From: Candidatus Dadabacteria bacterium
GTDB taxonomy: Bacteria; Desulfobacterota_D; UBA1144; Nemesobacterales; Nemesobacteraceae
Direction of reading: 5' to 3'
DNA: 64,000 nt
Assembly: GCA_009840385.1 (NCBI GenBank)
Contig: VXNX01000009.1
Span: 101,585-165,584, forward strand
The position numbers were made by a program, and so were the translations under genes. The notes under the pieces were generated by a model that worked only from the letters and a program-made list of their open reading frames with translations, was not told where the DNA came from and searched no databases. Shown here piece by piece: positions 32,379-59,221 of this stretch. Every line of letters starts with the position of its first letter. Position 1 is the stretch's first letter.

Positions 32379-35007
32379 ATTCGCTTATGGCCTCGTCGAC
32401 GGCTACCTCATCAATCCTGCCTCCCCTCGCAAGCTCATGGAGCGCCGCAATCGCGATGTGACGGTAGTCGACCTCGAAGAAGTCGCGAAGCGCCTCCCGG
32501 GTGTCGCTTCTCCCGAACCCGTCGGTGCCGAGAGAGACAAGGGGCTTGGGGAAATAGGAAGAAATCGAATCGGGAAGGCTCTTAAGATAGTCGGTCGCGG
32601 CAATGAAAACCCCGTCTTCCCCTTCCATGCTCTCTGAAATGTAGCTTTTTCTTCTCTTCTCTCCGGGATTGAGGCGGTTCCATCTTTCCGCCTCCTTCGC
32701 ATCCTGGTAAAGCTCCTTGTAGCTCGTGATGCTCCAGACGTCGGTCGGGACGCCGTAGCCGCTCTCAAGAACCTCTCTCGCCCAAAGAACCTCGTTCATG
32801 ATGGCACCGCTTCCGAAAAGATGGACCTTTTTCCCCGAGTCCTTGAGCGAAGAAGACGCGAACCTGTACATCCCTTTTATTATACCTTCCTCGACCCCCT
32901 CCGGCATGGCGGGCTGCACGTAGCGCTCGTTCATCACCGTTATGTAGTAGAATATCTCCTCCCCGTCCTGGTACATCCTCTTTATCCCGTCGCGCACTAT
33001 CACGGCGATCTCGTAGGAGAAAGCCGGATCGTAGGCCTTTAGGTTCGGATAGGCGTAGGCGAAATGATGGCTGTTTCCGTCCTGGTGCTGAAGACCTTCG
33101 CCAGCAAGGGTGGTACGCCCCGCCGTGCCTCCCACCATGAAACCCCTGCATTTCATGTCGGCGGCGGCCCAGATAAGGTCCCCTATTCTCTGAAAGCCGA
33201 ACATCGAGTAATAGATGAAAAAGGGAATGGTGTTTATGCCGTGTGTCGAGTAGGCCGTGCCGGCCGCTATGAAGGAGGACATGCTGCCCGCCTCTGTTAT
33301 GCCTTCTTCGAGTATCTGCCCGTCCTTTGCCTCCTTGTAGTAAAGAAGGGTATCCGCGTCAACGGGTTCGTAGAGCTGTCCCACGCTTGAATAGATGCCC
33401 ACCTGGCGGAAAAGCGCCTCCATTCCGAAAGTTCTCGCCTCGTCGGGGACTATGGGGACTATCAGATCTCCTATATCCCTGTCCCGCATTAGCCTTGAGA
33501 GCATGTGGACGATCACCATGGTCGTGGCTACTTTCCTCTTGGAATCTGAGGCCTTTTTAAACTCCTCGAACACTCGCTCCGGGATCTTCTCAAGGGGCTT
33601 TGCCCGTACGGTCCGCTTCGGGATGGTTCCGCCGAGGGCCTCTCTTCTTTCGCGGAGATATTTCATCTCCGGGCTGTCGGGAGCGGGCCTGTAGAAGGGA
33701 GCTCTTCTTATTTCCTGGTCCGTAATCGGTATGTAGAACCGGGACCGGAAGCGCTTGAGTTCCTCTTCGTTAAGTTTTTTCTGCTGGTGGGTTATGTTCT
33801 TTCCCTCCCCCGCTTCTCCGAGACCGTAACCCTTTATGGTCTTTGCGAGAATCACCGTGGGAGAACCGGTGTTCTCAACCGCGGCCTTGTAGGCGGCGTA
33901 GACCTTTTCTGAGTCGTGGCCTCCTCTTGCGAGCTTTTCAAGTTCCTCGTCCGTGTGGTTCTCGACCATCTTCAGGATTTCAGGGCGGGTGCCGAAAAAA
34001 TGCTCCCTTATGTATTTCCCGGGAGAAATGGTGTACCTCTGGTAATCCCCGTCAAGGGCCGCTTCCATCCTCTCGACCAGAAAGCCGTCTTTATCCTGCG
34101 CCAGGATCGGATCCCATGTTCCTCCCCATACAACCTTTATCACGTTCCACCCCGCCCCCCTGAAGATCCTCTCAAGCTCCTGTATTATCTTGCCGTTTCC
34201 CCTCACCGGACCGTCAAGGCGCTGGAGGTTGCAGTTGATCACGAATATCAGGTTGTCGAGCTTTTCCCTAGACGCGAGGGTGATGGCCCCCAGGGTCTCG
34301 GGCTCGTCGGTTTCCCCGTCCCCGATAAAGGCCCACACCTTGGCGTCGGTGCAGGGCTTAAGGTCCCTGTCCTCTAGGTACCTGTTGAAACGGGCCTGGT
34401 AAATCGCCATTAGGGGAGAAAGTCCCATCGAGACCGTCGGGAACTCCCAGAAGTCCGGCATGAGCCAGGGGTGTGGATAGGAGGAGAGGCCGTCTCCGCC
34501 GAGCTCCCTCCTGAAATTGCGCATCTGCTCGATAGAGACCGTGCCTTCGAGAAACGCCCTTGCGTATATGCCCGGCGAGGCATGCCCCTGGAAGTAGATC
34601 ATGTCCCCTTCCCGGCCCTCGTCTCCCGCCCTGAAGAAATGGTGGAAACCTATCTCGTAGAGCGTTGCGGCGGATGCGTATGTAGAGATGTGTCCACCGA
34701 TTCCGTCACTGATCCTGTTTGCGCGCACGACCATGGCCATGGCGTTCCACCTTATTATGCTTCTTATGTTGCGCTCTATTTCGTAGTTGCCGGGGTAAGG
34801 CGGCTGGTCCTCAAGGGCGATGGTGTTCACGTAGGGGGTGTTCGCGGCGTAGGGAAGCTCTACGCCTTTTTTCTGGGAGTATATCCGGAGCTTTTTGAGC
34901 AGTTCGGCTGCCCTCTCGCGACCGGAATTCTCGATCACGTATTCAAGCGACTCGATCCATTCCCGGTCTTCAGCTTCTTCTTCCGAAATTTGAGGATCTT
35001 CTTCCAT
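32338..35007 (-). CDS. aceE: pyruvate dehydrogenase E1 component, homodimeric type
   Basis: About 890 aa AceE-type E1 with ThDP-binding motif. Start placed at the internal ATG (MEEDPQISEEEAEDREWIESLEYV), which aligns with canonical AceE N-termini; the listed ORF extends 30 codons further. Confidence 0.9.
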   Translation of the reverse strand: MEEDPQISEEEAEDREWIESLEYVIENSGRERAAELLKKLRIYSQKKGVELPYAANTPYVNTIALEDQPPYPGNYEIERNIRSIIRWNAMAMVVRANRISDGIGGHISTYASAATLYEIGFHHFFRAGDEGREGDMIYFQGHASPGIYARAFLEGTVSIEQMRNFRRELGGDGLSSYPHPWLMPDFWEFPTVSMGLSPLMAIYQARFNRYLEDRDLKPCTDAKVWAFIGDGETDEPETLGAITLASREKLDNLIFVINCNLQRLDGPVRGNGKIIQELERIFRGAGWNVIKVVWGGTWDPILAQDKDGFLVERMEAALDGDYQRYTISPGKYIREHFFGTRPEILKMVENHTDEELEKLARGGHDSEKVYAAYKAAVENTGSPTVILAKTIKGYGLGEAGEGKNITHQQKKLNEEELKRFRSRFYIPITDQEIRRAPFYRPAPDSPEMKYLRERREALGGTIPKRTVRAKPLEKIPERVFEEFKKASDSKRKVATTMVIVHMLSRLMRDRDIGDLIVPIVPDEARTFGMEALFRQVGIYSSVGQLYEPVDADTLLYYKEAKDGQILEEGITEAGSMSSFIAAGTAYSTHGINTIPFFIYYSMFGFQRIGDLIWAAADMKCRGFMVGGTAGRTTLAGEGLQHQDGNSHHFAYAYPNLKAYDPAFSYEIAVIVRDGIKRMYQDGEEIFYYITVMNERYVQPAMPEGVEEGIIKGMYRFASSSLKDSGKKVHLFGSGAIMNEVLWAREVLESGYGVPTDVWSITSYKELYQDAKEAERWNRLNPGEKRRKSYISESMEGEDGVFIAATDYLKSLPDSISSYFPKPLVSLGTDGFGRSDTREALRDFFEVDYRHIAIAALHELARGGRIDEVAVDEAISEFGIDRGKPNPAVT

Positions 35008-35420
35008 TATCCGTGCAAAACGCGGCGGAGCGGGGCCACGGGGGAATTGCAACGCAGAGCAACCGCGTTGTCCTTGCAGTTGAGAATCGGGCCTCAAATG
35101 CTCAAAGCATTACGCCAGACCCAAAGCGGAAACCCGGATTCGAGGAAGCAGTTTAACCGCAAGGGAAAAAATATCACTACTGGCGCAAGACTATTTTAGT
35201 GCCTCTTTTCTCGAGGATTATCTGGAACAACTCTGATGAAAAACACGCCACTGTCCGCTGATCCATATGATGCGGAGGAATTTATTTAGGCCCTTGGAGT
35301 GGTGCCGCGTAAATTTTTAGCCTGATTCCGGTTTATTTTTATCTGTTCAGATAAACCCCCGTGGGATGGAAAAGACAGTTGCCGTAAATCTGGCGGAAGT
35401 CGGATTTGTCTGGAGGTCAG

Positions 35421-37091
35421 TCACTCTTCGGTAGAATCCCATTCACGAGAAGCCCATTCCAAAATCTTACGCTCTCTAAGTCTAATGGCTTTAATTGACC
35501 AGCGTTTATTTGATGCCACTTCAACTGCGATGAGAAGTCCAGTTTCTCTATATTTTTCAAATTTCTTTTTTGAGGGCATGCCGCCCAACCTAGAATTTAG
35601 ACTTGGTGGCAGGAGCAGAAGGTTTCCCAATCTATGTTTAACATGATCGGGTGCGGTATTTTGTGGATAGATATGCTCAATTGATTTAGAGGGGCTTACT
35701 GACCAAATTTTCTCCCACTGTTCATTTTTAAATTTGTTGCCCTTTTGCTTCGTTAGATACTCTTCATATCTGAACATAAAATATCTCAATTCCTCTTGCC
35801 ATCCCTCATAACAGTTTGCGTTTCGCAAGGCTTTTACCGCATCTTCAATTGGGAAATCATTTCCAATTGACCGAATTTCGTTGAATATTTCATCTACAGT
35901 AAGGTTTTCCCGGACTATTTTCCTTGCAAGCCTAGCATACTCACCCACGCGTGTTCGCGCATCGTGGCGAAGCATACCGTAAATTCTAAACGAAACCTTT
36001 TCCCAGATAGACAATAAGCGGGCTTGATCTTTTTTTGTCACTCTTTCGCAGAGGTGTATTGCAACAGCCAGCAAACGTGCCTGTGAAATTCGGGTAACAG
36101 CATTCAGTCGGTGTTTTGATACAACGGCATCACATGCTTTTGTTACTTGTAGAAGCCACCGGGCAACATCCCTTATCTCCCTTGCATCATGTGCTGCTGA
36201 TCGAAATTCGTCCACGGCAGCTTGCTCACTCATTGGACGATTTTGTGGCGTTGACGCACGAAGTGTTGCAGCAAAGCGCAGTGCCTCCGTACTCAGCCCT
36301 TGAGTTAGACCAACTGTGGAGTAAATATCACTCCAAATAATACGTAAATCTTTTATTAATTGTTCGCTATCTGCATCTTCCAGCGTATATGCAGCACCCA
36401 TAAGGATACTCTTGAGACGATCCAGCCAAGACACCTCCATTCCGCGACTGTTGAGTACTTCAAAAACTGTATAAACAGTTTTCTCATCTGATATTTCGTG
36501 CAAAATAAAAGATAGTCGATTTTTGATGTGTCCAACTAAGAGAGTCAATTCATGGCCATTTTCTACCCAATCTTTAACGAACTTTTTACAGTCTGCTATT
36601 GCTGCGAGAAGTTCTCGGTCCGCTAGCGTTTTGCCTTTTTCAGGATCTTCACTTTTACCGTAACGAATGAAATCTGCAAAATGATGGCTTGTATCATGGT
36701 TTGTTTGAAGTAGAAGGAGATTGTCACCACCGACTTTAACCAATAGCTCTTTAAGTTCTCGAGCGGTTAATTCTTCACCGGCATCCTCGCAATTGAGCGC
36801 CAGTCTTATTGCGTTTAATAAAATGATCAAGGTCGTCAGACGTTGTTGACCATCCACTATATCCAGTTTATGGAACTCATGAGTACCAAGTGTTATCTTC
36901 TTCTTCCGAAGACAAACAATAACTGCCATAAAATGGCTCGCATTCTCACCTTGAAGATTATTTATATCTTCAAACAGGTCTTTTCGTTCACGCGAAGTCC
37001 AACTGTATGCACGCTGATAATCTGGGATATTAAATAAACGCCCGTTGAGTAGATTTGCGAAGGTAAGATGCAGAGGTTGAATGTCGATCAT
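35421..37091 (-). CDS. DUF262 (ParB-like) plus DUF1524 (His-Me finger) protein, GmrSD-like type IV restriction endonuclease family
   Basis: N-terminal IPDYQRAYSW and VDGQQRLTTL DUF262 motifs. C-terminal nuclease-like region. 556 aa. Confidence 0.65.
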   Translation of the reverse strand: MIDIQPLHLTFANLLNGRLFNIPDYQRAYSWTSRERKDLFEDINNLQGENASHFMAVIVCLRKKKITLGTHEFHKLDIVDGQQRLTTLIILLNAIRLALNCEDAGEELTARELKELLVKVGGDNLLLLQTNHDTSHHFADFIRYGKSEDPEKGKTLADRELLAAIADCKKFVKDWVENGHELTLLVGHIKNRLSFILHEISDEKTVYTVFEVLNSRGMEVSWLDRLKSILMGAAYTLEDADSEQLIKDLRIIWSDIYSTVGLTQGLSTEALRFAATLRASTPQNRPMSEQAAVDEFRSAAHDAREIRDVARWLLQVTKACDAVVSKHRLNAVTRISQARLLAVAIHLCERVTKKDQARLLSIWEKVSFRIYGMLRHDARTRVGEYARLARKIVRENLTVDEIFNEIRSIGNDFPIEDAVKALRNANCYEGWQEELRYFMFRYEEYLTKQKGNKFKNEQWEKIWSVSPSKSIEHIYPQNTAPDHVKHRLGNLLLLPPSLNSRLGGMPSKKKFEKYRETGLLIAVEVASNKRWSIKAIRLRERKILEWASREWDSTEE

Positions 37092-37162
37092 TGGGAATTC
37101 TTGGAACTGTCTTTTTTGACGTTAAAGTTAGAAAAGTACTGGATTTATATACTCAACTCAAT

Positions 37163-38074
37163 TTAATATGAAAATTCAGAACAGATAGCTTCCCAGATGT
37201 ATTCTGCTGTCTCTTGCGGAGACATGAAATCTACATTATTTGTAAAAGCTAGCATTCCCATGGAATTTAATTTAAGCTCTCCTTCGTGTTCTTCCACAGA
37301 AATTATTTCGTTTGTTGATTTATCTTCACTCACATCTATATGGGTCCCATGTAGCATCCAAATTTCATCTCCCCACATTTGACCGTTTATCCATATTTTC
37401 AGGCTAGTCAATATATTTCCTTCATTGTAAAGAGTGAACAGCACTTTCCTTGTTGTTATCTTTTCGACTTCAAATTCAAAGGTCGGGTATTCATTTTTAG
37501 TTTCACGCACAAATTCACCAATGGCGAAGACTATATGCTCAAAAGATTCCCTAAGAAACTTTTTCTTTTCTTGATCGGAAAACGATCTCCTAAGCTTGGG
37601 TATATAGGACTTTGAGAAATTTGATTTGTTCAGCTTTCGCCCCTCATCTTGTTTCTTTCTTCCGATCTTCTGGAGGAAAAGGTCCACAATCTTTTCAGGT
37701 TCCGTACTTTCTGCAGAAACATATACGATAGTGTTAGGAAGTCCTGGAACATCGCCGGAAAAACCATCAAGACGAACTGGAAGTATATATGCTTCTCCTT
37801 TTTCTTGAATGCTTTTCTCCATAGCGTTTCTAAGCTCCCATACAGTCCACACTTTCTCTAGATAATAATCTGAAAGAATTATTATGCAGTACCGACTATC
37901 AGTGAAATATATTTCTCTCAATTTAACCGATAGATCTTCTCCCCATAGATTAGCGGGATTGAATTCATCATAAAAAACTTCGACTTTTTCCGCTTGTAAT
38001 GCGGTGGCTATAGCTTCAGCGAAATTTCTATTTTCACCCGCAAATGATAAGGCGACATCATATTTATATGTCAT
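37163..38074 (-). CDS. TIR-domain protein (ThsB-like)
   Basis: YDVALSFAGENRNFAEAIATALQAEKVEVFYD...IIILSDYYLEKVWTVWELRN matches the bacterial TIR_2 pattern, including the putative catalytic Glu. About 170 aa C-terminal extension of unknown function. Confidence 0.7.
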   Translation of the reverse strand: MTYKYDVALSFAGENRNFAEAIATALQAEKVEVFYDEFNPANLWGEDLSVKLREIYFTDSRYCIIILSDYYLEKVWTVWELRNAMEKSIQEKGEAYILPVRLDGFSGDVPGLPNTIVYVSAESTEPEKIVDLFLQKIGRKKQDEGRKLNKSNFSKSYIPKLRRSFSDQEKKKFLRESFEHIVFAIGEFVRETKNEYPTFEFEVEKITTRKVLFTLYNEGNILTSLKIWINGQMWGDEIWMLHGTHIDVSEDKSTNEIISVEEHEGELKLNSMGMLAFTNNVDFMSPQETAEYIWEAICSEFSY

Positions 38075-38179
38075 ACATAGTAATCCTTAATCATCTAGAG
38101 TAAGAAGACAAAATATAGGGAACGAAATTGGTAGGGTCGCATTCTTTAGCACATCCATATAATCCTCTTACAAACCTTA

Positions 38180-39031
38180 TTATGTTGTCGATTGTCTCAC
38201 AGCTCCAAGAGTGTGATTGACCGCGAGACGTAGATTGTCTTCTACACGAACTATAGTATCCATGCCATTATCTTCACCCAAACGACGAACAGTAATTGTG
38301 ATGTTAACAGACTCCCCATGAAATTCATCTACAAAAACTTGCTCTCTCCGTAAAAGTTGAGATGAGGTGATTAAGAATGAAATTTCAGGTTCGTCATCTA
38401 AAAAGAGATTCATGGAATTGGATGCAAAAACAAACCGGTCTATATCGGTTGGCAATTCCGAGAAAAGCGTCTGCATGTTTCCAGTTGGCCAATAAATCAC
38501 TTGAATCAGTACTACATACCGAAAACTTTTTCCATGATTGACAAAAGTCCATTCAATTCCCAGTTCATCACCATAACTAGCGACTTCAATGGCCCAATCA
38601 GTGTAAAAATTGGAGATTTCAGCTCTTGCTTGCGCTGGATTCGAGATTCGCGACAAAGACCGTAGCAGAAAGTTGAAACTTCCATCTATATCCTCACGAA
38701 AATCAATACAAGATTTTTCCTTGAGAAGTAAAGGAATTTCACAATCATCAAGTATGATGGGGATTAGTAAAACCGACTTTTCTTCTAATTCTCGTATCAA
38801 TCCGGCACGCAACTCCTTTTTGCACCATTCAGATTCAACAGAGTCCTTAGATAGCAAAACTAGTATCGCGTTCGCATCTCCCAAAGCTTCTTCGATCTTG
38901 GAGATCAAAGAGTCACCCGCATTGAGTTCCCATTTATCGATCCAAACATTCTGCTTTGCTTGAACTAGATTAAGTGCCAAATTCTCAGCGAAATCTCTGT
39001 CGGCCTTGTTGTAACTAATGAATACTGGCAA
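38180..39031 (-). CDS. TIR-domain protein (ThsB-like), second copy
   Basis: MPVFISYNKADRDFAENLALNL...AILVLLSKDSVESEWCKKEL TIR pattern. About 150 aa C-terminal region of unknown function. Confidence 0.7.
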   Translation of the reverse strand: MPVFISYNKADRDFAENLALNLVQAKQNVWIDKWELNAGDSLISKIEEALGDANAILVLLSKDSVESEWCKKELRAGLIRELEEKSVLLIPIILDDCEIPLLLKEKSCIDFREDIDGSFNFLLRSLSRISNPAQARAEISNFYTDWAIEVASYGDELGIEWTFVNHGKSFRYVVLIQVIYWPTGNMQTLFSELPTDIDRFVFASNSMNLFLDDEPEISFLITSSQLLRREQVFVDEFHGESVNITITVRRLGEDNGMDTIVRVEDNLRLAVNHTLGAVRQSTT

Positions 39032-39458
39032 TGTATCTCCTCCAATTTCTAAGTTGGCCCCACACTACTTCACTGAGGGGTAGAAAAATTAGTGTATCTT
39101 TCAAGATACTGTATAATATAAGTATTCTCTATAGTACAATACTACGGTAAGAAGAATTCACCAATGGGTGAAAACATTGAATACTTCTTAAAAAACATCT
39201 CTCGAAGGCCTAGTTGGATAATGGTGGAATTGGTGAACTTACTTGCCATGGGTCAGGTTTACAACGGGCTTCCAGTCGCACAGTAAAAGTAGATTGGAGA
39301 TGGTTAAGAAGAACTTAGGGACCAAAGATCCAAATCTCGGCTTTCTGAATCACCCAGCATATCGGTCCTTACAAAAAACTTCATTGAGATGGTTGAAGTG
39401 AAATTGTCTAATAACTGAATTATAGTCCTATTAACATTCCTCAATTAAAACCACGAAA

Positions 39459-39893
39459 ATGACGCCGGAAGAATATCTCAAGGATCGAGTTGAACAGCAA
39501 ATCAATTGGTACGACTGCAAAAGTACCCTTAACAAAAGATACTTTTACCTTTTACAAATCATTGTTTTGGTAATGTCCGCGGCTGTGCCAGTGGTTTCAA
39601 TACTATCCATAGTTTTTGAAAGCATATGGATACGGCTTGCCATAGGAATATTGGGTGCACTCGCAACTATAGCAACAGGGATTATTTCAATTTGCCAGTT
39701 TCGTAAGAATTGGATTGAATACAGGACAACGGCAGAATCGCTGAAGTGTGAAAAATACATGTTTAGAACTAAAACTGGTTTCTATGCAAAAAGTGGAACT
39801 TTTCCAGTGTTCGTAGAACGAATTGAAGCATTGATCAGCAAAGAGCACAAAAACTGGGAACAACATCTGAGAATCCAGAAACAAGCCGACTAG
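39459..39893 (+). CDS. SLATT-like two-TM protein (DUF4231-like predicted membrane effector)
   Basis: 144 aa. N-terminal WYDCKSTLNKRYFYLLQ followed by two hydrophobic helices and a short C-terminal tail, the SLATT/DUF4231 layout. First gene of the plus-strand operon. Confidence 0.5.
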   Translation: MTPEEYLKDRVEQQINWYDCKSTLNKRYFYLLQIIVLVMSAAVPVVSILSIVFESIWIRLAIGILGALATIATGIISICQFRKNWIEYRTTAESLKCEKYMFRTKTGFYAKSGTFPVFVERIEALISKEHKNWEQHLRIQKQAD

Positions 39894-39928
39894 AAAACAT
39901 TATCTCGCTGGCAAACAAGAGAATAACA

Positions 39929-40900
39929 ATGCCAGAAAATCGAAAAACTGAACTACGCGTTGCAGAAACGGTGCTGCCGTTGCCGTGCTTCTTCCCGTCA
40001 GTTTCAAGTGTAGTAAAAACCGACATGACACCAACTGATCATATAGAGCTTCTCGGTTTTTCCGCACACTCGCTCTTTCTTATTTCGGCATATGATGTTG
40101 CGAACTGCACTTACCAAGACCGAAAGCGCATAAAAACCGCACTTGATAAGAGCAAAAAACACGGGGCAGTAATACTGATGGATAGCGGTAATTACGAGGG
40201 GTTTTGGAAAGTAGACAAAACTTGGAAGGCAGATAATTTCCATGAAGTCGTAAAATCCTGTAAAAATGATCTTTGTTTTTGTTACGACAATCACAATCCC
40301 CCTGATTCCATAGAGACAATTGCGGAGGATGTGATTGCAAGAGTTATTCAAGATCAAAATCACACCAATGGGATCGTGTGTCCGATAATACACGGGGAAA
40401 CCACACTTCTGCCTGGTTCAGCCAAAAGGGTGGCAGAACAACTTTCTCCATTGCTTTTGGCGATTCCTGAACGAGAATTAGGAAAAGGAATAATTGGACG
40501 GATTCGGACTATAAAAAAAATACGAAAATCCCTAAACGATCTGGAAACTTATTGCCCCCTGCATTTGCTAGGTACGGGAGACCCCGTCTCAATCATTGCT
40601 TATTCAATGGTCGGGGCAGACAGTTTTGACGGATTGGAGTGGTGCAAAAGCGTTATAGATCACGAAACAGGTAATCAGCACGATTTTCAACATTGGGACT
40701 TTTTCCGGCATCAAACAAATCGAGAACTGCCGGAGAATTTTCCCCACAAGCAATCAGTCTTGATGCACAACTTGAATTTCTACAGACAGTTCATGAAGGA
40801 ACTACATGACGCTGTAAAGAATGAAGATACAGAAACGTTTCTGCGACGGTATACAACCGAAAACCAGGCTTCTTTATTGGTTGATGCAATCAAACAATAA
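39929..40900 (+). CDS. tRNA-guanine transglycosylase-fold protein, DpdA-like (predicted 7-deazaguanine DNA transglycosylase)
   Basis: ILMDSGNYEGFW (equivalent of the DSGGFQ substrate pocket) and PLHLLGTGDPVSIIAYSMVGADSFDG (equivalent of the LxGxGxP...D.FD segment carrying the catalytic Asp). No CxCxxC zinc site. Confidence 0.65.
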   Translation: MPENRKTELRVAETVLPLPCFFPSVSSVVKTDMTPTDHIELLGFSAHSLFLISAYDVANCTYQDRKRIKTALDKSKKHGAVILMDSGNYEGFWKVDKTWKADNFHEVVKSCKNDLCFCYDNHNPPDSIETIAEDVIARVIQDQNHTNGIVCPIIHGETTLLPGSAKRVAEQLSPLLLAIPERELGKGIIGRIRTIKKIRKSLNDLETYCPLHLLGTGDPVSIIAYSMVGADSFDGLEWCKSVIDHETGNQHDFQHWDFFRHQTNRELPENFPHKQSVLMHNLNFYRQFMKELHDAVKNEDTETFLRRYTTENQASLLVDAIKQ

Positions 40901-41604
40901 TGGGTAAAACGTTCGCAAACCAACTTCCGCTTTCGGTTATTAAAAACGCGATTCTAGATATTTGTATCGTCCTAGAAGAGCAAGAACTAATATTCACCTC
41001 TTCACCAACTTGCAGTGAAGACAATCTTTGGAGAGAACTTGTGTCCTGCATTCTGGGGAGCCGGGTCAGGTTTGAAACCGCTTGTGCTGCGGTAGAGCGG
41101 CTAGACGACATGTGTTTGTTATGCCACTCACGCCGCACATCAAACTTCGACCAATATGAAACTGACATACTGTCAACTCTTTCGGGAAAGTATCCGTTTT
41201 ATAAGCTTCGAGCAAATCAGATACGGCAGGCGGCGGAATCACTTTATGGTTCCGGGGGTTCAATTAAGAGTCTCTTGGATAATACAGTCGATTTCCGTGA
41301 GATGCGGCAATACCTGATATCTGAAATCCCAGGATTGGGACCAAAGCAGTCCAGCTTGTTTCTTCGCAATATAGGATACGCCGACAGCGTTGCTGTTTTG
41401 GATGTTCATGTTCTGACCTATATGAATTGGGTTGGTTTGACAACGGTTCTTGAGAAGTCAATTCCGACTATACGCAAATACGAAACGCTTGAGAACTCTT
41501 TCGTTGAACATTCCCTATCTTTAGGATATTCTCCAGAGCAGTTTGATCTTGCCGTGTGGTTAGTTATGAAGGTAGCAAGGAAGGAATATAAAACATGGGG
41601 ATAG
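40900..41604 (+). CDS. HhH-GPD superfamily DNA glycosylase, Ogg2/AGOG-like
   Basis: ISEIPGLGPKQSSLFLRNIGYADSVAVLDVHVL helix-hairpin-helix Gly/Pro loop plus a downstream Asp, typical of archaeal-type 8-oxoguanine glycosylases. Start overlaps the upstream stop. Confidence 0.55.
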   Translation: MGKTFANQLPLSVIKNAILDICIVLEEQELIFTSSPTCSEDNLWRELVSCILGSRVRFETACAAVERLDDMCLLCHSRRTSNFDQYETDILSTLSGKYPFYKLRANQIRQAAESLYGSGGSIKSLLDNTVDFREMRQYLISEIPGLGPKQSSLFLRNIGYADSVAVLDVHVLTYMNWVGLTTVLEKSIPTIRKYETLENSFVEHSLSLGYSPEQFDLAVWLVMKVARKEYKTWG

Positions 41605-42179
41605 TGACTCTTGTATCCGGAGGTGTCGACTCCATGCTCATGAGCCTTTTTGCTCACGAAGAGGGTGTCGAGTTATTTCCCCTTTTCGTTGATTATGGGC
41701 AGCTTGGAGTATCCAAAGAATGGGAGGCATGCAGGCGACTACACGAACAGTTTGGTCTGCCAGAGGTCACTTATATGGACCTCTCAGGTTTCGGAGAAAT
41801 TATTCCGAGCGGTATTACAGACTCCAGATTGAGAATAAACGAAGATGCTTTCCTACCTGGCCGCAACCTTCTTTTTGTGCTGGCCGGAGCAGCCTATGCC
41901 TTAAAGGTCCAAGCCGATAGCGTGGCAATAGGTCTGCTTTATCAATCGGACCATATTTTCCCAGATCAAGACGAAAAATTCATTGAAAGGTGTGAAGAAG
42001 TGATTGAAACAGCCATGGGAAAACATATTAATGTCATCGCTCCGTTAATAGAGTTTTCAAAAACAGACGTGCTGACTATGGCCCGTGCACGCGGACTAGA
42101 AAACACATATTCCTGTCACGCAGGAGGCGATAGACCCTGCGGGGTATGTATAGCGTGTGTTGAGATTGACAATGCCTAG
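41595..42179 (+). CDS. queC: 7-cyano-7-deazaguanine (preQ0) synthase
   Basis: VTLVSGGVDSM PP-loop and C-terminal zinc ligands CHAGGDRPCGVCIAC, 194 aa. Confidence 0.8.
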   Translation: MGIVTLVSGGVDSMLMSLFAHEEGVELFPLFVDYGQLGVSKEWEACRRLHEQFGLPEVTYMDLSGFGEIIPSGITDSRLRINEDAFLPGRNLLFVLAGAAYALKVQADSVAIGLLYQSDHIFPDQDEKFIERCEEVIETAMGKHINVIAPLIEFSKTDVLTMARARGLENTYSCHAGGDRPCGVCIACVEIDNA

Positions 42180-42193
42180 ACAAAGGAGGAATC

Positions 42194-42697
42194 ATGGGTG
42201 GTAAATACTCAGGTGGTGGCAGTCTAAGCCCAGAACACCTAGAAGAACTTGAGCAGAGTGCCAAGAAATCCATAGAAAAAGGGGTATCTGGAAAGGTAAA
42301 TGCGTTCATAAGCTTTGATTCTGAAGACCTCAATGAAGTTAACTTGCTGCGCGGTCAAGCCAAAAACGAGAATACCGATATCGAATTCAATGATTGGTCG
42401 GTTAAAGTACCCTTTAACAGCGAAAGAGCTGAGTACATTCGACGTCGTATCCGGGAACGTATCAGGCAGTGTTCAGTCACAATTGTTTATGTTTCCGAAA
42501 AGACAGCCAGCAGCAAGTGGGTTGATTGGGAAATAAGAGAGAGCCTTGCTATGGGTAAAGGAGTTGTTGCCATGCACAAAGGTTCTACACCACCCAGACA
42601 ACTTCCAAAAGCGATTAAGGAAAATAATATTCCCGTTGTGCCTTGGAACCAACGGGAATTGGCAAAAGCTATCAAAAAACAGTCGGAAAACCGATGA
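42194..42697 (+). CDS. TIR-like domain protein (DUF1863/ThsB-like)
   Basis: KVNAFISFDSEDLNEVNLLRGQ...CSVTIVYVSEKTASSKWVDWEIRESL fits the DUF1863 TIR-like pattern. Confidence 0.5.
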   Translation: MGGKYSGGGSLSPEHLEELEQSAKKSIEKGVSGKVNAFISFDSEDLNEVNLLRGQAKNENTDIEFNDWSVKVPFNSERAEYIRRRIRERIRQCSVTIVYVSEKTASSKWVDWEIRESLAMGKGVVAMHKGSTPPRQLPKAIKENNIPVVPWNQRELAKAIKKQSENR

Positions 42698-42716: not shown

Positions 42717-43460
42717 ATGAATATCGATCTTAATAACATAAACCATTTGCCGGAGGCTGAGCAGCATAAGCTTGAATCAATTAGAGACTTGTGCCATCAA
42801 GAAGAATACTCCCAAGAATTAGTCAGACATAGTCGGGTACAGCCATTAGTTCGGGAACTAAATGATTTTTGCATGTCTAATCGAGTTATTGGAATTCACT
42901 ATACTCGTGCAAACAAGACAAGCATAGTTAAGTACGGGTTATTGTGCCGTTCTGGTGATGAGATCAGGGAAACTTTTCTTGAAGAACACGGGAAGCTCTT
43001 TACAGATGAGGAGATATCCAAACTAAAAAGCACTTGGGATAGCACCTATTGTAAAGAAGAGGCTAGTAACCGAGATTTCATGATTTTTTTTAATTTTATT
43101 ATTACCGAAAATCCTTTACATAATGCGGCTACAGAGGATCTCCTGAACCACTATGGAGGTGAACAAATTCCAATATGCTTTTGTCAACCTCCTTTGTTCA
43201 TACAGGGCGGCACCAATAAAAAATGCTCAATCTGCAAGAAACTAAACCAAATAGGTGAACCATTATTAGTTAGATGCTCATTAGACCCCAAAACAGTTAA
43301 TACTTTTACCGAGAATCCATGGGGGAAGATTTTAGTTTCCTCATTTCATGTTGAAGTTAATCCCGAAGCTTGTCGCATAGACCAAGATGGTTATATTAAG
43401 AAGCCAGTTTCCCCTCAGAACATTCTTGAAGTTAAATTACTAACAGATAGTTTCAACTAA
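42717..43460 (+). CDS. hypothetical protein with paired-Cys (possible zinc-ribbon) motifs
   Basis: ICFCQPP...KKCSICKK Cys pairs and no recognisable family. In operon with queC and TIR-like genes (19-nt gap). Confidence 0.3.
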   Translation: MNIDLNNINHLPEAEQHKLESIRDLCHQEEYSQELVRHSRVQPLVRELNDFCMSNRVIGIHYTRANKTSIVKYGLLCRSGDEIRETFLEEHGKLFTDEEISKLKSTWDSTYCKEEASNRDFMIFFNFIITENPLHNAATEDLLNHYGGEQIPICFCQPPLFIQGGTNKKCSICKKLNQIGEPLLVRCSLDPKTVNTFTENPWGKILVSSFHVEVNPEACRIDQDGYIKKPVSPQNILEVKLLTDSFN

Positions 43461-43497
43461 CTTTGGTATATCGCTCTTAACGGATAGCAGTATTTTT

Positions 43498-43902
43498 ATG
43501 GTTACCTTACAGGAGCAAAGCCTAGATTGGGCTCTTGCGCATGTGGAAACATTCGGAGACACGGATGTTTTTCCAATACCCTTTGAGTACGAAGCAATTC
43601 GTCATGATTGGGAGGCATTAAAATTTCAACTTGCCGGACAGGACCTCTTAAAATGGACAGTGCGGCCACTTCGAATCTTGCCGGCACCGAAAGCTCGATA
43701 CGGGTTTCGAATAATAACCCAACTTGACCCTTTAGATTTCCTATTGTTTGCTGCAACTATACGAGAACTCTGTACCTCGATAGAGTCCAAGCGTATCTCT
43801 CCATCCGTAGTGTGTTCGTACAGAGTGGCACCAACGGAGAATGGCCAACTTTTTGACCAAAACTACTGGCAAATTCTCATTTGGGAAGATGATCAAATAT
43901 AG
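43498..43902 (+). CDS. hypothetical protein resembling the N-terminal (motif 0-2) region of a reverse transcriptase, possibly truncated
   Basis: RPLRILPAPKARYGFRIITQLDPLDFLLFAATI resembles the RT IPKxxGxxRPI...D(R)..Q segment. Only 134 aa. Ends about 15 nt from the 3' end of the convergent PHP-ATPase gene. Confidence 0.25.
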   Translation: MVTLQEQSLDWALAHVETFGDTDVFPIPFEYEAIRHDWEALKFQLAGQDLLKWTVRPLRILPAPKARYGFRIITQLDPLDFLLFAATIRELCTSIESKRISPSVVCSYRVAPTENGQLFDQNYWQILIWEDDQI

Positions 43903-43916
43903 AGGGCATAATTTTT

Positions 43917-46900
43917 TTAGGATATTTGATATTTTAAACGCCTTTTAAGAAATGCTGGCTGTGAACCTTCCAAAATATCTACTATTTTTTGATTGATACT
44001 AGGGTTTTCAATCGCGCCTGTTTCATAACTGAATTTGTAATTTTCCGCCTTTTCTAATTTGACGCATATAATCTGTTCAGCATCAGCTCCGACGGCCAGA
44101 TTAGGATTGTGGGTTACTAAAACAACTTGCCTGCTCCTCTTAGCTTTTCTTATACACTGTGACAGAACTCTAAAAATACTCTCATTATCCAAATTATCCT
44201 CAGGCTGATCAATTATGAGAGGAATGGTTTCCTTATCAAGTTGGAGATAAAAAACGAGTAATAACAATCCCTTTTCTCCTGGTGATAGTTCATTAAGATT
44301 TTTGCCGCCTAATTGGAGCTCATATTTTGCCGTCACGTATTCCAACGAAAACATAAAATCGTAAAACTTTTTGCTATCCATAACCTGATCACGTATTAGA
44401 ACAGGTTCCTCGTTATATAACGACATTTCCTGAATCACTCTATCAAAAAATGCGTAAACTGATTCAAAATCGTTCCAATCAACTCCAGCAACTAAGTCCC
44501 TTAAAAGGTTCTGAGGTTCGTTTGTCCCATGGAAGTAACCACGTTTCTTTTTGTTAATAAGTTTCAAGAAATCATCAGCAAACGAGTTATCAGTTACAAA
44601 AGACGCTTTAATTTCAACTGCAAATTCGTCAGTCTTAACAGAGTCAAGTTTGGATTCAACGCTATGTTTAAGCTCGGAATAAAAATTCAGAATTTGTTTT
44701 TTACTTTCAAAAATGTCTTTAACAATCTTTTTTCGTCTCTCACGTGCTTGGGAAATTTCTTCACTTAATTCACGATCAATATATGTAATTTTTCCTCTCA
44801 AATATCTTGTGGTTCCTGATTTTGGATCATCCGCACCACCAAGTATTTCGTCCTTTTGGGCATTCCACACAGCTAATTTCTCTAAATAGCTTTGATATTT
44901 TCTTTGAGGAGTTCCTAATTTGTCCTTTAATTCATTTATTTCCTCGACTAGGTGTGTGATCCCGGATTTTAAATCAGGTAGAGTCTCAAAAAACTCTGGT
45001 TGGGCATCTTTCACAAAATCCAGATTGCTGTCACTTTCAAGTTTCTGGATTTTAGCTTCTACCATAATAATCTGATCCTCAATAGGTTTTGTATTAATCT
45101 TACTTGTAATTATTTTTTCAATATCAAGACCCAGTTCATCACAGATAATCTTTAGTTCAGATCTTTGCCTTTGGATGTGCGTTTCTAATGATGATACATT
45201 CTGCAAAAGTGCTTTTAGTTTTTGCAACAGGTCCTTCTTCTGGGTTAATTCATCAATAAATTTTCTTTCCTCAGATGCTAATTTCTTTCTGCGCAATTCA
45301 AGTTGCTCTATCCGTTCAGTCAACTCTTTTTGCTCTTCAGATTCTTCATCGGGTTTGCTTATCTCAGCAGGCTTGGCTTCCTCCAGCGAACTCAATTCAT
45401 CTTCTCTAGCTCTCAGCTCCCCCTCTAGCCTCTTCCTAAATAGAGGATCAGATTGTTCTTCTAAATCAACTATTCCAATGTTGAGTTCACGAAGTTTAGT
45501 TTTCAGCAGACTGGTTTCCTGCTTGCTTTGCTGAGTTTTAAACTCCTGCAAATCCTTAAATGTTGCCTTCCCCATACGATCAGTTTCTTCAACATGTGAA
45601 AAAACAACATTCTCTATTTCCCTGCGAAACTGTTGAATCTCTATTTCGTTTGTTAGTTGCTCAAAGTAGTTTTGTGGCAGGTAGCGAACGGCTTCAGGCT
45701 GGCTTTCATCAATATCCTCGTCCAGTTGCTTAGAAATAGTTGAACCGCTCTGCCACTTTAACTTCGCCGTAAAATTCTCTGAATATCCGCGTTGCCGAAA
45801 TTTTTTATTATCTTTCTTGTTTATAAGGAAAGAAAAATTGTTTTCCTGTCTGCTATTGCTCAAAAGGCCGATAATATCAACCAAAGCGCTCTTTCCATTC
45901 CCCTTGTTACCAATGATAACAACTAGTTCCGGGTTTAACTGGATATTCACTTTTTTAAACCAATAGCCATTAACTCCGTCGTATCCCTCTTTCTGGTCAA
46001 TTTCTAGCTCCTTCAGAAACTTTGTGGCTTGGTTAGATTTCCTTATCTCAACCTCTGGTTCAGAACCAATATGAACTCTCGCTTCAGGTTCAAAGCAAAT
46101 TTGTTCTAGGCCTCGAAACGTCAGATCCGCTTTAATCCATGTCGGCTCATATCCAGAGACATCTCCTCCTAAACGCTCCAAGTCGTCAAAAGAGTGAGCA
46201 TCGCTTGCAGAGACAACTGGTTTAGGCCGTGATTTACCGTCTTTATAGCGATCAGGTTGTAGAAACCAACCCCTGCTTTTAGAATCACCGAAAAATAAAT
46301 GACTTCCCTTGTCTATCTTGTCAGAAATCAAAACTTTTCGAGGTGCTCTGCTATCAGTACTCCTTATACCATCGTTTTTAGCTGGAAACGCAATAAGGTA
46401 AGGCCTTGTTTCTCCAAAAGTCTCTTCCAAAGCCTCTCTGAGTTCTTCGAAAGAGACGGTCGCTGCCTTATATTGTGATTGGGTTCTAAGTTCAGCACAC
46501 GAAATTCTTGCTCCAGTCTCCTTGTTAGCTGAAGTTTTAAGCGTTAACAAGAAACGATTTATCGAATCTTTCGAGCAAACCTCTGTGTCATTGTCAAAGA
46601 TCACATGAATGTTCGGGTTGCTATTTTCCGGGCTAATTGCTTCAACCAATCTAAACTCAATATTCGGGAAGAAAACTTTATCAGTTTCAGGATATTTCTT
46701 TTTATATTTTTCCAACAAAGAGAAATAGCCATCGGCACTAAAATAATCCGTAATGCCAAATGCTTGAACTAGGGATTTCTCTAAACAATCAATGTATTCA
46801 TCCCACACATTCTCTTCGTTCCCATAAGAGTCAGCTAACTTTGTTCCCGGCGTATGTATATGCAAATCCCAGCGTCGCCACTGAGAACCTTTTTTTGAAT

Positions 46901-46925: not shown

Positions 46926-47096
46926 CTGTTGTTCTTACTCATTGCGACAGAAAACCAGCATTATATGGGGGTATATAGACCTAGCTCTTCGTTCTTTTCC
47001 ACTCGCTTCGATTGATTTTCAACACTTACCCACATGCGGCAACTCAGATTCAAAACTACGTACTAAAGTTTAACGATGGGCTTTGCAGAAAAGATT

Positions 47097-48410: not shown

Positions 48411-48499
48411 TAAATTGGTACCTCAACCCGTATCAAAATGGCAGGTATGCACGCTTAAGTCAATCAAGATTTAATATTGTTAAGTCTAACGCCAAGCGA

Positions 48500-55063: not shown

Positions 55064-55117
55064 AGCTGAAGCACACTGTCTCTATACAATAGCTAAAGAT
55101 ATAACTAGGACGCCACA

Positions 55118-57858: not shown

Positions 57859-57907
57859 ATTATTCCCTTACCCTTTTTAATCTTGGCCAATTCCTCGTTT
57901 CTATCGT

Positions 57908-59209: not shown

Positions 59210-59221
59210 TAGGTTCCTCCT

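What the first reader, a model, noticed from the sequence alone, without database searches (positions are those of the whole stretch)
35421..39031. Tandem TIR genes followed by a GmrSD-like DUF262/DUF1524 nuclease on one strand
Two TIR-domain genes (each with an unassigned C-terminal domain of 150-170 aa) and a DUF262/DUF1524 protein lie on the minus strand with 105- and 71-nt gaps, divergent from the SLATT operon. Canonical Thoeris needs ThsA (SIR2/Macro-SLOG), which is absent here. The only effector candidates are the neighbouring GmrSD-like nuclease and the divergent SLATT protein. GmrSD-like enzymes are classically modification-dependent (type IV), which is curious next to genes predicted to modify host DNA with 7-deazaguanine.
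Basis: partly seen in the sequence, partly recalled or inferred. Interest (0 to 1): 0.6.

Follow-up and report, generated by a model that had tools for sequence, protein, structure and literature searches.

The report
Three unlinked neighbouring phage-defence genes
Two TIR-domain genes and a GmrSD-type nuclease gene do lie in a row here, but related genomes show they are three separately mobile anti-phage genes in a defence island, not one new TIR-nuclease system, and the neighbouring "deazaguanine" genes most likely modify a protein, not DNA.

Summary
On the minus strand lie a 556-aa DUF262/DUF1524 (GmrSD-family) gene, a 303-aa TIR gene (TIR-A) and a 283-aa TIR gene (TIR-B). The gaps are 71 and 105 nt, and the three genes are divergent from a SLATT operon. 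Both TIR proteins keep the catalytic Glu.

The idea that they form one system is not supported.
- DNA homology to related Ca. Dadabacteria genomes with the same aceE-dnaK hotspot breaks at the gene borders. GmrSD (35367-37133) and TIR-A (37157-38096) are single-gene cassettes.
- TIR-B travels as one block with the SLATT operon in 4 of 7 loci.
- No GmrSD relative lies beside a TIR-A relative (one distant DUF262 gene 6 kb away among 22 loci) or within 10 kb of a TIR-B relative (0/80).
- Neither TIR family has a conserved partner.
- GmrSD relatives occur without either TIR family.

The "7-deazaguanine" genes are best matched by Cap9 and Cap10 of type IV CBASS, which carry out protein deazaguanylation. 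They sit in a Thoeris-type operon (SLATT effector, TIR with an MGG... tail). This configuration was already noted in a 2025 preprint.

Verdict: an ordinary defence island of independent modules. The only open link is TIR-B to the SLATT effector.

The parts
35421..37091 (-). GmrSD-family (HEC-06-like) DUF262/DUF1524 nuclease gene, 556 aa; DGQQR at residues 80-84, EHIYP at 472-476
   Evidence: Pfam GmrSD_N and GmrSD_C. PADLOC HEC-06, 9.1e-54, full length. Motif positions. At least 2553 homologs of about 555-560 aa.
35367..37133 (.). Extent of the GmrSD cassette: DNA homology (92%) to L166/L167, where its neighbours are different
   Evidence: blastn blocks; gene context of L166.
37092..37162 (-). 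71-nt gap between TIR-A and GmrSD. It contains the cassette junction (37134-37156), which is AT-rich. No consensus promoter or terminator was scored.
37163..38074 (-). TIR-A, 303 aa: N-terminal TIR_2 domain (residues about 1-125, catalytic E80), a linker, and a C-terminal Y4lF-type (PF27176) domain (about 158-303) predicted as a helix / 6-stranded sheet / helix sandwich
37157..38096 (.). Extent of the TIR-A cassette: 81-91% DNA identity to L038, L083, L084 and L085, with no homology on either side
   Evidence: blastn blocks.
38075..38179 (-). 105-nt gap between TIR-B and TIR-A. It contains the junction (38097-38118) between the TIR-A cassette and the TIR-B block. The TIR-A ribosome-binding site AAGGA lies inside the cassette.
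38180..39031 (-). TIR-B, 283 aa: N-terminal TIR_2 domain (about 1-120, catalytic E73) plus a family-specific C-terminal domain (122-283) with invariant D145, R249, G252, D254, G256 and D258 (RRxGxDxGxD)
39032..39458 (.). 427-nt divergent intergenic region between TIR-B and the SLATT gene. It is conserved together with the operon (76-87% in L085, L172, L173, L175, L176 and L177).
   Evidence: No Rfam match and no credible small ORF.
39459..42697 (+). Neighbouring system (context): SLATT_1 effector, Cap10 (TGT-like), Cap11 (OGG-like), Cap9 (QueC-like) and a ThsB-type TIR with the N-terminal MGGKYSGGGS tail
   Evidence: literature.

Best explanation
The stretch holds three self-sufficient anti-phage genes that happen to be neighbours in a variable defence island. 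The island lies between aceE (pyruvate dehydrogenase E1) and dnaK in a Candidatus Dadabacteria genome.

(1) The 556-aa protein is a single-polypeptide GmrSD-family nuclease of the HEC-06 kind. An N-terminal DUF262 NTPase (DGQQR) drives a C-terminal DUF1524 His-Me/HNH nuclease (EHIYP) that cuts invading DNA, probably modified DNA. The motifs are shown; the activity is inferred.

(2) and (3) TIR-A and TIR-B belong to two unrelated, widespread families. Each consists of a catalytically intact AbTIR-like TIR domain fused to its own fixed C-terminal domain. Neither family has a conserved neighbour, so each most likely works alone. In this model the C-terminal domain senses an infection cue, the TIR domains assemble, and NAD+ is cleaved. 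That would either starve the cell (abortive infection, as in SpbK) or release a cyclic ADP-ribose-type signal. This mechanism is inferred.

The three genes were assembled here by cassette-like exchange. They may be co-transcribed, but they do not depend on one another. TIR-B is the exception in one respect: in this lineage it is usually inherited as one block with the adjacent Thoeris-type SLATT/Cap9-10-11 operon, so a functional link to that operon stays open.
For: Cassette borders. blastn of the window against sister loci with the same aceE and dnaK flanks gives homology only at 37157-38096 (TIR-A; L038, L083, L084, L085) and 35367-37133 (GmrSD; L166/L167). Everything between differs.

Co-occurrence. 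tblastn of all island proteins against 22 loci with full-length TIR-A relatives and 80 loci with TIR-B relatives finds no TIR-A/TIR-B pairing, no SLATT or Cap genes except in L085, and no GmrSD except a 23%-identical gene 6 kb away in L006.

Neighbour clustering gives no family shared by more than 3 loci.

Pfam on 115 TIR-A neighbours: restriction-modification, SMC, SIR2, STAND and Druantia genes, with no fixed partner. Pfam on 142 TIR-B neighbours: the commonest hit is another TIR gene (6), SLATT_3 appears once, and neither GmrSD nor QueC/TGT is among the 25 commonest families listed.

GmrSD relatives at 90%, 69% and 64% identity stand without either TIR family.

The PADLOC HEC-06 profile matches full length at 9.1e-54. 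HEC-06 defends as a single gene and needs its DGQQR and EH motifs. Here these motifs are at 80-84 and 472-476.

The catalytic Glu is invariant in both TIR families. The closest solved TIR domains are the NAD+-cleaving AbTIR and BtTir group.

The TIR-B C-terminal domain occurs only behind a TIR-sized N-terminus or in shorter fragments among 308 representative clusters out of 1.84 billion proteins.

A single-gene TIR NADase defence has a precedent in SpbK.
Against: The three genes are co-oriented with short gaps, and no terminator-like site lies in the gaps, so co-transcription cannot be excluded.

The conserved part of the TIR-A cassette extends only 22 nt upstream of its start, so its expression may depend on whatever lies upstream.

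TIR-B is contiguous with the SLATT operon in L172 and L175, and in L173 with an IS element inserted between them. Six of the seven operon loci (the window and six relatives) carry some extra TIR gene on the divergent side. This fits a multi-sensor Thoeris system as well as it fits island synteny.

No activity of any of these proteins has been measured. 'Works alone' rests on the absence of a conserved neighbour, and an effector encoded elsewhere in the genome would escape this test.
Confidence: 0.6

Rival explanations
1. TIR-B, and perhaps TIR-A, are additional ThsB-type sensors of the neighbouring Thoeris system. On infection they would make a cyclic ADP-ribose signal that opens the same SLATT (ThsH-like) membrane effector used by the Cap9/10/11-controlled TIR. 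GmrSD would remain separate.
For: TIR-B, the 427-nt intergenic region and the SLATT operon form one homology block in L172 (87%) and L175 (TIR-B 92% aa identity). In L173 they are interrupted only by an IS3-type insertion. That gives 4 of 7 operon loci, counting the window. Two further operon loci carry other TIR genes on the divergent side: L085 has ThsB plus TIR-A, and L174 has a TIR 74% identical to the TIR-A domain but fused to a DnaA_C domain. Islands with several ThsB genes per effector, and TIR+SLATT type VII Thoeris signalling through cADPR, are documented.
Against: L177 has the operon with no extra TIR within 7.5 kb upstream. TIR-A persists at the hotspot without any SLATT gene in L038, L083 and L084. 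In the wider families, a SLATT neighbour is seen in 1 of 60 TIR-B loci and in none of the 19 TIR-A loci found by the genome scan. The operon already has its own TIR. TIR-A and TIR-B lack the N-terminal Gly-rich tail that Cap9 would need.
Confidence: 0.25
2. One reading: the two TIR proteins and the GmrSD-like nuclease form one Thoeris-like system in which a TIR signal switches on the nuclease.
For: Same strand, with gaps of 71 and 105 nt. No ThsA is present in the island. DNases are among the effector types predicted for putative Thoeris configurations. In L170/L171 a ThsB_TIR + 8xMP gene pair lies about 400 nt upstream of a GmrSD relative.
Against: No co-occurrence: among 22 TIR-A loci only L006 has a GmrSD relative, a distant one 6 kb away, and none of 80 TIR-B loci has one. 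The 90%-identical GmrSD in L166 occupies the same hotspot with no TIR gene nearby. The three genes are separate homology cassettes. The GmrSD protein has the ordinary two-domain length with no extra sensor domain, and it matches a validated single-gene system over its full length. In L170 the TIR gene already has its own partner, 8xMP.
Confidence: 0.04
3. The genes are functionally independent but were kept adjacent by selection because they complement each other. The GmrSD nuclease would act against phages with modified DNA, and the TIR proteins would serve as an abortive back-up, co-regulated as one transcript.
For: Defence genes embedded in other systems share orientation in 96.7% of cases and can act complementarily. 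No terminator-like site lies between the genes.
Against: Among the related loci fetched, the particular trio is seen only in this window and its identical copies L001/L002, so nothing suggests it has been kept by selection.
Confidence: 0.1

Closest known systems
HEC-06 / GmrSD-like type IV restriction enzymes (Payne et al., bioRxiv 10.1101/2024.01.29.577857); relatives BrxU and SspE
   Same: A single polypeptide of about 556 aa with DUF262 (DGQQR) and DUF1524 (EHIxP) domains. The PADLOC HEC-06 profile matches full length at 9.1e-54. The motif positions (80-84, 472-476) almost coincide with the essential HEC-06 residues Q79/R80 and E471/H472.
   Different: It is not embedded in an Hma, BREX or type I R-M system here. 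Its substrate and any dependence on DNA modification are unknown. SspE and type IV profiles match only the N-terminal about 100 residues. The best solved relative is an uncharacterised DUF262 protein, 9JFL, at 1.8e-17 over residues 3-233.
ThsB proteins of Thoeris systems (types I-XI; Yirmiya et al., bioRxiv 10.64898/2025.12.03.692087), in particular the PADLOC ThsB1 profile PDLC00420
   Same: A TIR domain with the catalytic Glu. PDLC00420 (319 positions) matches the TIR-B TIR domain (profile positions 4-102) and the TIR-A C-terminal domain (profile positions 157-312), so the TIR + Y4lF-type architecture seems already filed as ThsB. Both genes lie in defence islands, and islands with several ThsB genes are known.
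   Different: Neither family has a conserved adjacent effector. The Thoeris survey deliberately set such standalone TIR proteins aside.
SpbK of ICEBs1 (Loyo and Grossman 2025, PMC11984713)
   Same: A single-gene abortive-infection protein with one TIR NADase domain and one non-TIR domain that binds a phage protein. It is carried on mobile DNA.
   Different: In SpbK the TIR domain is C-terminal, whereas here it is N-terminal. Similarity of the non-TIR domains was not tested. The trigger for TIR-A and TIR-B is unknown.
AbTIR / BtTir / PdTIR / TcpB group of bacterial TIR NAD+ hydrolases and cADPR-isomer synthases
   Same: They are the closest solved TIR domains by profile search (E 1e-12 to 1e-15). 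The W-x-x-x-E catalytic segment aligns.
   Different: Those proteins have other, or no, partner domains. The product specificity of TIR-A and TIR-B cannot be read from sequence.
Type IV CBASS ancillary module Cap9/Cap10/Cap11 (Wassarman et al. [quoted passage not shown] 2025, Fig. 6G). This concerns the neighbouring operon, not the three genes.
   Same: The QueC-like protein's best solved match is Cap9 (9NTO, 1.9e-14, ahead of true QueC). The only solved match of the TGT-like protein is Cap10 (9NTN), with H212 and D234 aligned to the catalytic H226 and D248, and D85/S86 to D73/S74 in a low-scoring stretch. An OGG-like gene is present. The partner TIR starts M-G-G and is Gly-rich.
   Different: The signal generator is a TIR protein rather than a CD-NTase. 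The tail MGGKYSGGGS fits the M(G/S)G(G/S)GG motif only in part. TIR-A and TIR-B have no such tail.

Membership tests
Thoeris (a TIR signal generator plus a cognate effector) formed by TIR-A, TIR-B and GmrSD | TIR protein with an intact catalytic Glu | tested here: met
   E80 (TIR-A) and E73 (TIR-B) are invariant in 26 and 30 aligned homologs. E73 aligns to the Glu of the DWTNYE segment of AbTIR.
Thoeris (a TIR signal generator plus a cognate effector) formed by TIR-A, TIR-B and GmrSD | An effector gene that accompanies the TIR gene across genomes | tested here: not met
   Among 22 TIR-A loci only L006 has a GmrSD relative, a 23%-identical gene 6 kb away, and none of 80 TIR-B loci has one. No neighbour family is shared by more than 3 loci.
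Thoeris (a TIR signal generator plus a cognate effector) formed by TIR-A, TIR-B and GmrSD | An effector that carries a signal-binding domain (SLOG, Macro, SLATT pocket and the like) | tested here: not met
   The GmrSD protein consists of GmrSD_N (residues 13-230) and GmrSD_C (420-546) with the usual linker. The single-gene HEC-06 profile matches it over its full length.
Type VII Thoeris (TIR + SLATT effector ThsH), with TIR-B as the ThsB component | A SLATT-domain effector adjacent to the TIR gene | tested here: inconclusive
   This holds in this lineage: 4 of 7 operon loci, as one homology block. It does not hold in the wider family, where 1 of 60 loci has a SLATT_3 neighbour.
Type VII Thoeris (TIR + SLATT effector ThsH), with TIR-B as the ThsB component | Phage-dependent production of canonical cADPR that activates the effector | not testable with these tools
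   This needs LC-MS of infected-cell lysates and toxicity assays, as in Yirmiya et al..
GmrSD-family / HEC-06-like single-protein restriction nuclease | DUF262 domain with the DGQQR NTPase motif | tested here: met
   Pfam GmrSD_N at 2.4e-30; DGQQR at residues 80-84.
GmrSD-family / HEC-06-like single-protein restriction nuclease | DUF1524 domain with the (D/E)H-I-x-P His-Me nuclease motif | tested here: met
   Pfam GmrSD_C at 4.2e-17; EHIYP at residues 472-476. The corresponding HEC-06 motif is EHICP.
GmrSD-family / HEC-06-like single-protein restriction nuclease | Functions and moves as a single gene | tested here: met
   The homology block 35367-37133 recurs in L166/L167 with different neighbours. 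Relatives at 69% and 64% identity sit in unrelated contexts.
GmrSD-family / HEC-06-like single-protein restriction nuclease | Cleavage that depends on DNA modification | not testable with these tools
   This requires nuclease assays on hmC, glucosyl-hmC, deazaguanine and unmodified DNA.
   The island holds only QueC-like, TGT-like and OGG-like genes. The best solved matches are Cap9 and Cap10 rather than QueC or a tRNA/DNA transglycosylase. The PADLOC hits carry the component names 'QueC' and 'TGT'; I read these as the type IV CBASS accessory components, which is my interpretation and not a tool result.
Cap9/Cap10-dependent deazaguanylation (type IV CBASS-like control) | A target protein with an N-terminal M(G/S)G(G/S)GG extension | tested here: inconclusive
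   The operon's own TIR (42194-42697) starts MGGKYSGGGS and has a 37-residue extension before its TIR domain, which is a partial fit. TIR-A (MTYKYDV) and TIR-B (MPVFISY) start directly with the TIR domain, so they do not fit.
SpbK-like single-gene TIR abortive-infection proteins | One polypeptide with a TIR NADase domain and a sensor domain, and no obligate partner gene | tested here: met
   The architecture and the lack of conserved neighbours are shown. NADase activity and the trigger were not tested.

The most novel reading that the evidence does not exclude
The hotspot could encode a hot-swappable, multi-sensor Thoeris system. Free-standing TIR cassettes with exchangeable C-terminal sensor domains would all feed a cADPR-type signal into one shared SLATT pore. 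These cassettes are TIR-B, TIR-A, and the TIR-A-like TIR fused to a DnaA_C domain in L174. A fourth TIR in the same circuit would be licensed separately by Cap9/Cap10 deazaguanylation. That would mean two differently controlled inputs to one effector.
Probability: 0.2. Interest if true: 0.55.

Novelty: new member of a known kind. Interest (0 to 1): 0.25.

Why it matters
The finding does not reveal a new TIR-nuclease immune pathway. Its value lies in three clarifications.
- Adjacency and shared orientation in a defence island are not evidence of a system. Here the cassette borders can be read to within about 20 nt from sister genomes.
- QueC/TGT/OGG genes next to a signalling enzyme should be read as protein-deazaguanylation (Cap9/10/11) genes, not as DNA modification genes. 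This removes the apparent conflict with a type IV nuclease.
- The analysis delimits two widespread, uncharacterised families of standalone TIR proteins with fixed C-terminal domains: TIR + Y4lF-type, and TIR + an 'RRxGxDxGxD' domain. Both are reasonable candidates for single-gene defence assays.

If TIR-B proves to signal to the neighbouring SLATT effector, this locus would be a compact model for a Thoeris system with two kinds of input control.

Tried and rejected
- Promoter and terminator consensus scan of 35000-39600: 7 promoter-like and 3 terminator-like sites, against 10.5 and 3.5 expected. None lies in the two gaps, so operon structure cannot be decided.
- Island borders: no tRNA genes in the window, and no direct or inverted repeats beyond chance-level 16-24-mers. 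It is not a classical integrated element.
- Rfam on 35-44 kb: only one sub-threshold hit. Small ORFs in the 427-nt divergent region are not credible.
- The AlphaFold-database fold library was unavailable.
- NCBIfam gives no family for GmrSD, TIR-A or TIR-B beyond generic TIR similarity.
- Considered and rejected: TIR-A and TIR-B as tandem duplicates.
- Considered and rejected: a link between TIR-A and the TrlF-type ATPase. ABC/SMC-type ATPases lie directly upstream of TIR-A relatives in L012 and L018, but they did not cluster together at E 1e-6.
- Left open: TIR-A with a SIR2 (PDC-S65) partner. This is seen in only 3 of the 19 loci from the genome scan, and two of those genes are fragments.

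Full report
**What is there.** The window has a low-GC stretch (0.36-0.46) from about 35.2 to 48.5 kb, set in sequence of 0.52-0.57 GC. At its left end, on the minus strand, lie three ORFs exactly as reported: 35421-37091 (556 aa), 37163-38074 (303 aa, here TIR-A) and 38180-39031 (283 aa, here TIR-B). The gaps are 71 and 105 nt. Pfam assigns GmrSD_N plus GmrSD_C to the first ORF and TIR_2 to the N-terminal about 120 residues of the other two. The exact proteins occur on a 215-kb metagenomic scaffold labelled Candidatus Dadabacteria. The island is flanked by the pyruvate dehydrogenase genes (aceE side) and by dnaK.

**The TIR proteins.**
- TIR-A belongs to a family of at least 430 clusters of about 303 aa. 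Its C-terminal part is covered by the recent Pfam model PF27176 'Y4lF'.
- TIR-B belongs to a different family of about 400 clusters of about 282 aa, with no Pfam model for the C-terminal 160 residues.
- In alignments of 26 and 30 diverse members, the Glu of the W-x-x-x-E segment is invariant: E80 in TIR-A and E73 in TIR-B. E73 aligns with the Glu of the DWTNYE segment of AbTIR.
- The nearest solved TIR domains are the NAD+-cleaving AbTIR, BtTir, PdTIR and TcpB group.
- The two proteins share only 30% identity over 99 TIR residues, and their C-terminal domains are unrelated. They are not tandem duplicates.
- A profile of the TIR-B C-terminal domain finds 308 representative clusters among 1.84 billion proteins. 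In the 150 best that are listed, the domain sits at about residues 122-285 of proteins of about 285-300 aa, or in shorter fragments, never behind a different N-terminal domain.

**The nuclease.** The 556-aa protein matches the PADLOC HEC-06 profiles over their full length (9.1e-54). HEC-06 is a GmrSD-like gene shown to defend on its own, and its DGQQR and EH motifs are essential. Here DGQQR is at 80-84 and EHIYP at 472-476. The family is very large, with at least 2553 clusters of about 555-560 aa.

**Are the three genes one system? Three independent lines of evidence say no.**

1. *Homology blocks.* Several related genomes share the same aceE and dnaK flanks at 86-92% DNA identity.
   - Between those flanks, homology to the window is confined to 37157-38096, which is TIR-A plus 6 nt downstream and 22 nt upstream. 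This holds in L038, L083, L084 and L085.
   - In L166/L167, homology is confined to 35367-37133, which is the GmrSD gene plus about 50 nt on each side.
   - Everything else in those islands differs.
   - TIR-B homology starts at 38119 or 38184.
   - The two gaps between the genes therefore each contain a cassette junction of about 22 nt.

2. *Co-occurrence.*
   - I examined 19 further loci with full-length TIR-A relatives from a scan of species-representative genomes, plus three close relatives (22 loci in all). None has TIR-B. None has a GmrSD relative, apart from a 23%-identical gene 6 kb away on the other strand in L006. Only L085 has the SLATT operon.
   - In 80 metagenomic loci with TIR-B relatives, none has TIR-A, GmrSD, or a relative of the window's SLATT or Cap genes.
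   - All-against-all clustering of neighbours finds no family shared by more than three loci.
   - Pfam scans of 115 TIR-A neighbours and 142 TIR-B neighbours show defence-island company but no fixed partner. That company includes restriction-modification, SMC-type ATPases, SIR2, STAND, Druantia and other TIR genes.

**The neighbouring operon and the 'deazaguanine' puzzle.** The divergent operon (39459-42697) encodes, in order, a 144-aa SLATT_1/DUF4231 protein, a TGT-like protein, an OGG-like protein, a QueC-like protein and a 167-aa ThsB-type TIR.
- The best solved match of the QueC-like protein is Cap9 (9NTO), ahead of genuine QueC. The only solved match of the TGT-like protein is Cap10 (9NTN).
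- In the Cap10 alignment, H212 and D234 align with the catalytic H226 and D248, and D85/S86 align with the base-reading D73/S74. The D85/S86 pairing comes from a low-scoring stretch.
- In type IV CBASS, Cap9 attaches 7-amido-7-deazaguanine to Gly2 of the signalling enzyme, whose N-terminus reads M(G/S)G(G/S)GG. Cap10 binds that modified tail.
- The operon's TIR starts MGGKYSGGGS and has a 37-residue extension before its TIR domain.
- TIR + SLATT is type VII Thoeris, which signals through canonical cADPR. [quoted passage not shown]

These genes are therefore best read as protein-modifying regulators, not as a DNA-modification pathway. The supposed tension with a modification-dependent nuclease disappears. 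None of the island ORFs scanned matched a DpdB, DpdC, QueD, QueE or FolE family.

**The one link that remains open.** Including the window, seven loci carry the SLATT/Cap operon with usable upstream flank.
- TIR-B is the divergent neighbour in four of them: the window, L172, L175, and L173 (where an IS element is inserted exactly at the TIR-B start). In L172 and L175 the homology runs without a break from TIR-B through the intergenic region into the operon.
- Two more have other TIR genes on that side (L085, L174).
- One has none (L177).

This can be inherited synteny within a small lineage, or it can mean that TIR-B acts as an extra sensor for the SLATT effector. Against the second reading:
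- the wider TIR-B family almost never has a SLATT neighbour (1 of 60 loci);
- the operon has its own TIR;
- TIR-B lacks the Gly-rich tail.

I give this reading about one chance in four.

**Mechanism, with its status.**
- Shown: the domain architectures, intact catalytic motifs, cassette borders, lack of conserved partners and defence-island context.
- Inferred: the GmrSD-like protein acts as an NTP-dependent His-Me nuclease on foreign, probably modified, DNA.
- Inferred: TIR-A and TIR-B are self-contained proteins in which the C-terminal domain senses infection and the TIR domain cleaves NAD+. The result would be either depletion of NAD+ (as shown for the single-gene TIR protein SpbK) or a cADPR-type signal.
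- Undecided: whether the three genes share a transcript. The consensus scan found no promoter-like or terminator-like site in either gap and no excess over chance across the region. The conserved part of the TIR-A cassette contains its ribosome-binding site but only 22 nt upstream of the start.

**Verdict.** The arrangement is real, but among the related loci fetched the trio occurs only in this window and its identical copies. It is best explained as three independent defence modules juxtaposed in a recombination hotspot. This is an ordinary feature of defence islands. The genes are new members of known kinds: a HEC-06-like nuclease and two standalone TIR proteins of uncharacterised families.

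Noticed in passing
window 39459-42697 (+): An operon of SLATT_1, Cap10-like, Cap11-like, Cap9-like and a ThsB-type TIR starting MGGKYSGGGS. It is a Thoeris-type system with type IV CBASS ancillary genes. Relatives L085, L173, L176 and L177 carry an extra 240-269-aa gene of unknown function between the SLATT gene and Cap10 that is absent here.
   Followed up: partly
window 42717-43902 (+) and 43862-48488: The 134-aa ORF at 43498-43902 is the N-terminal stump of a 523-aa reverse transcriptase (RVT_1). The intact gene follows the 247-aa gene in L175 and L177. In the window, homology stops at 43861 and resumes at dnaK (about 48490). The segment with the TrlF-type ATPase and the Schlafen-like gene therefore replaces the 3' part of the reverse transcriptase gene.
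   Followed up: partly
window 43917-46925 (-) and 47097-48410 (-): A 1002-aa TrlF-family AAA-like ATPase (NCBIfam NF045780, 656 bits against a cutoff of 350; weak Ppl and LmuB similarity), followed by a 437-aa SLFN_AlbA_2 protein. These are probably further defence genes.
   Followed up: no
L174 3050-4760: A 246-aa protein whose TIR domain is 74% identical to that of TIR-A but which carries a DnaA_C-type C-terminal domain instead of the Y4lF type. It lies next to a pP_pnuc_1 gene and is divergent from the same SLATT/Cap operon. This is evidence for swapping of C-terminal domains on one TIR scaffold.
   Followed up: partly
L085 6838-7696; L170 5688-6596; L171 496-1404; L172 1725-2574: ThsB_TIR + 8xMP (octameric membrane protein) gene pairs recur in related islands, three of them at this hotspot (L085, L172) or next to a GmrSD relative (L170/L171). 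They look like a separate two-gene TIR system.
   Followed up: no
L051 10939-12753; L008 6348-7022; L017 11396-12292: Relatives of the PADLOC candidate PDC-S65 (a SIR2_2-domain protein) lie directly beside TIR-A relatives in 3 of the 19 loci from the genome scan. Two of the three are fragments. This is a possible TIR-SIR2 pairing in part of the family.
   Followed up: partly
window 51653-60618 (-): A second low-GC island. It encodes a 1136-aa RNase_H_2 + AAA_11/12 helicase, a 277-aa NOV_C protein, a 636-aa SNF2 helicase, a 433-aa unknown protein, and a BglII-like endonuclease (154 aa) with an N6/N4 DNA methyltransferase (311 aa). The methyltransferase would be a host DNA modification that the GmrSD-like enzyme must tolerate.
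   Followed up: no
window 39459-42697 (proteins): Sequence-identical SLATT, Cap11, Cap9 and ThsB proteins are also deposited under a 'Candidatus Poribacteria' MAG (MXV84141-MXV84145; the Cap10-like protein of that MAG, MXV84144, is in the same 90% cluster). Both groups are, to my knowledge, sponge symbionts. This is either recent horizontal transfer or a binning error.
   Followed up: no
window 38180-39046: Public gene models for TIR-B disagree (288 aa at NCBI, 242 aa at ENA). The homolog alignment and a GGAGGAG site 6 nt upstream support the TTG at 39031 (283 aa).
   Followed up: yes
window 37134-37156 and 38097-38118: The two junctions between the cassettes are each about 22 nt long, AT-rich, and contain a TATAT(T/A) motif. 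They could be -10-like promoter elements or preferred recombination points.
   Followed up: no
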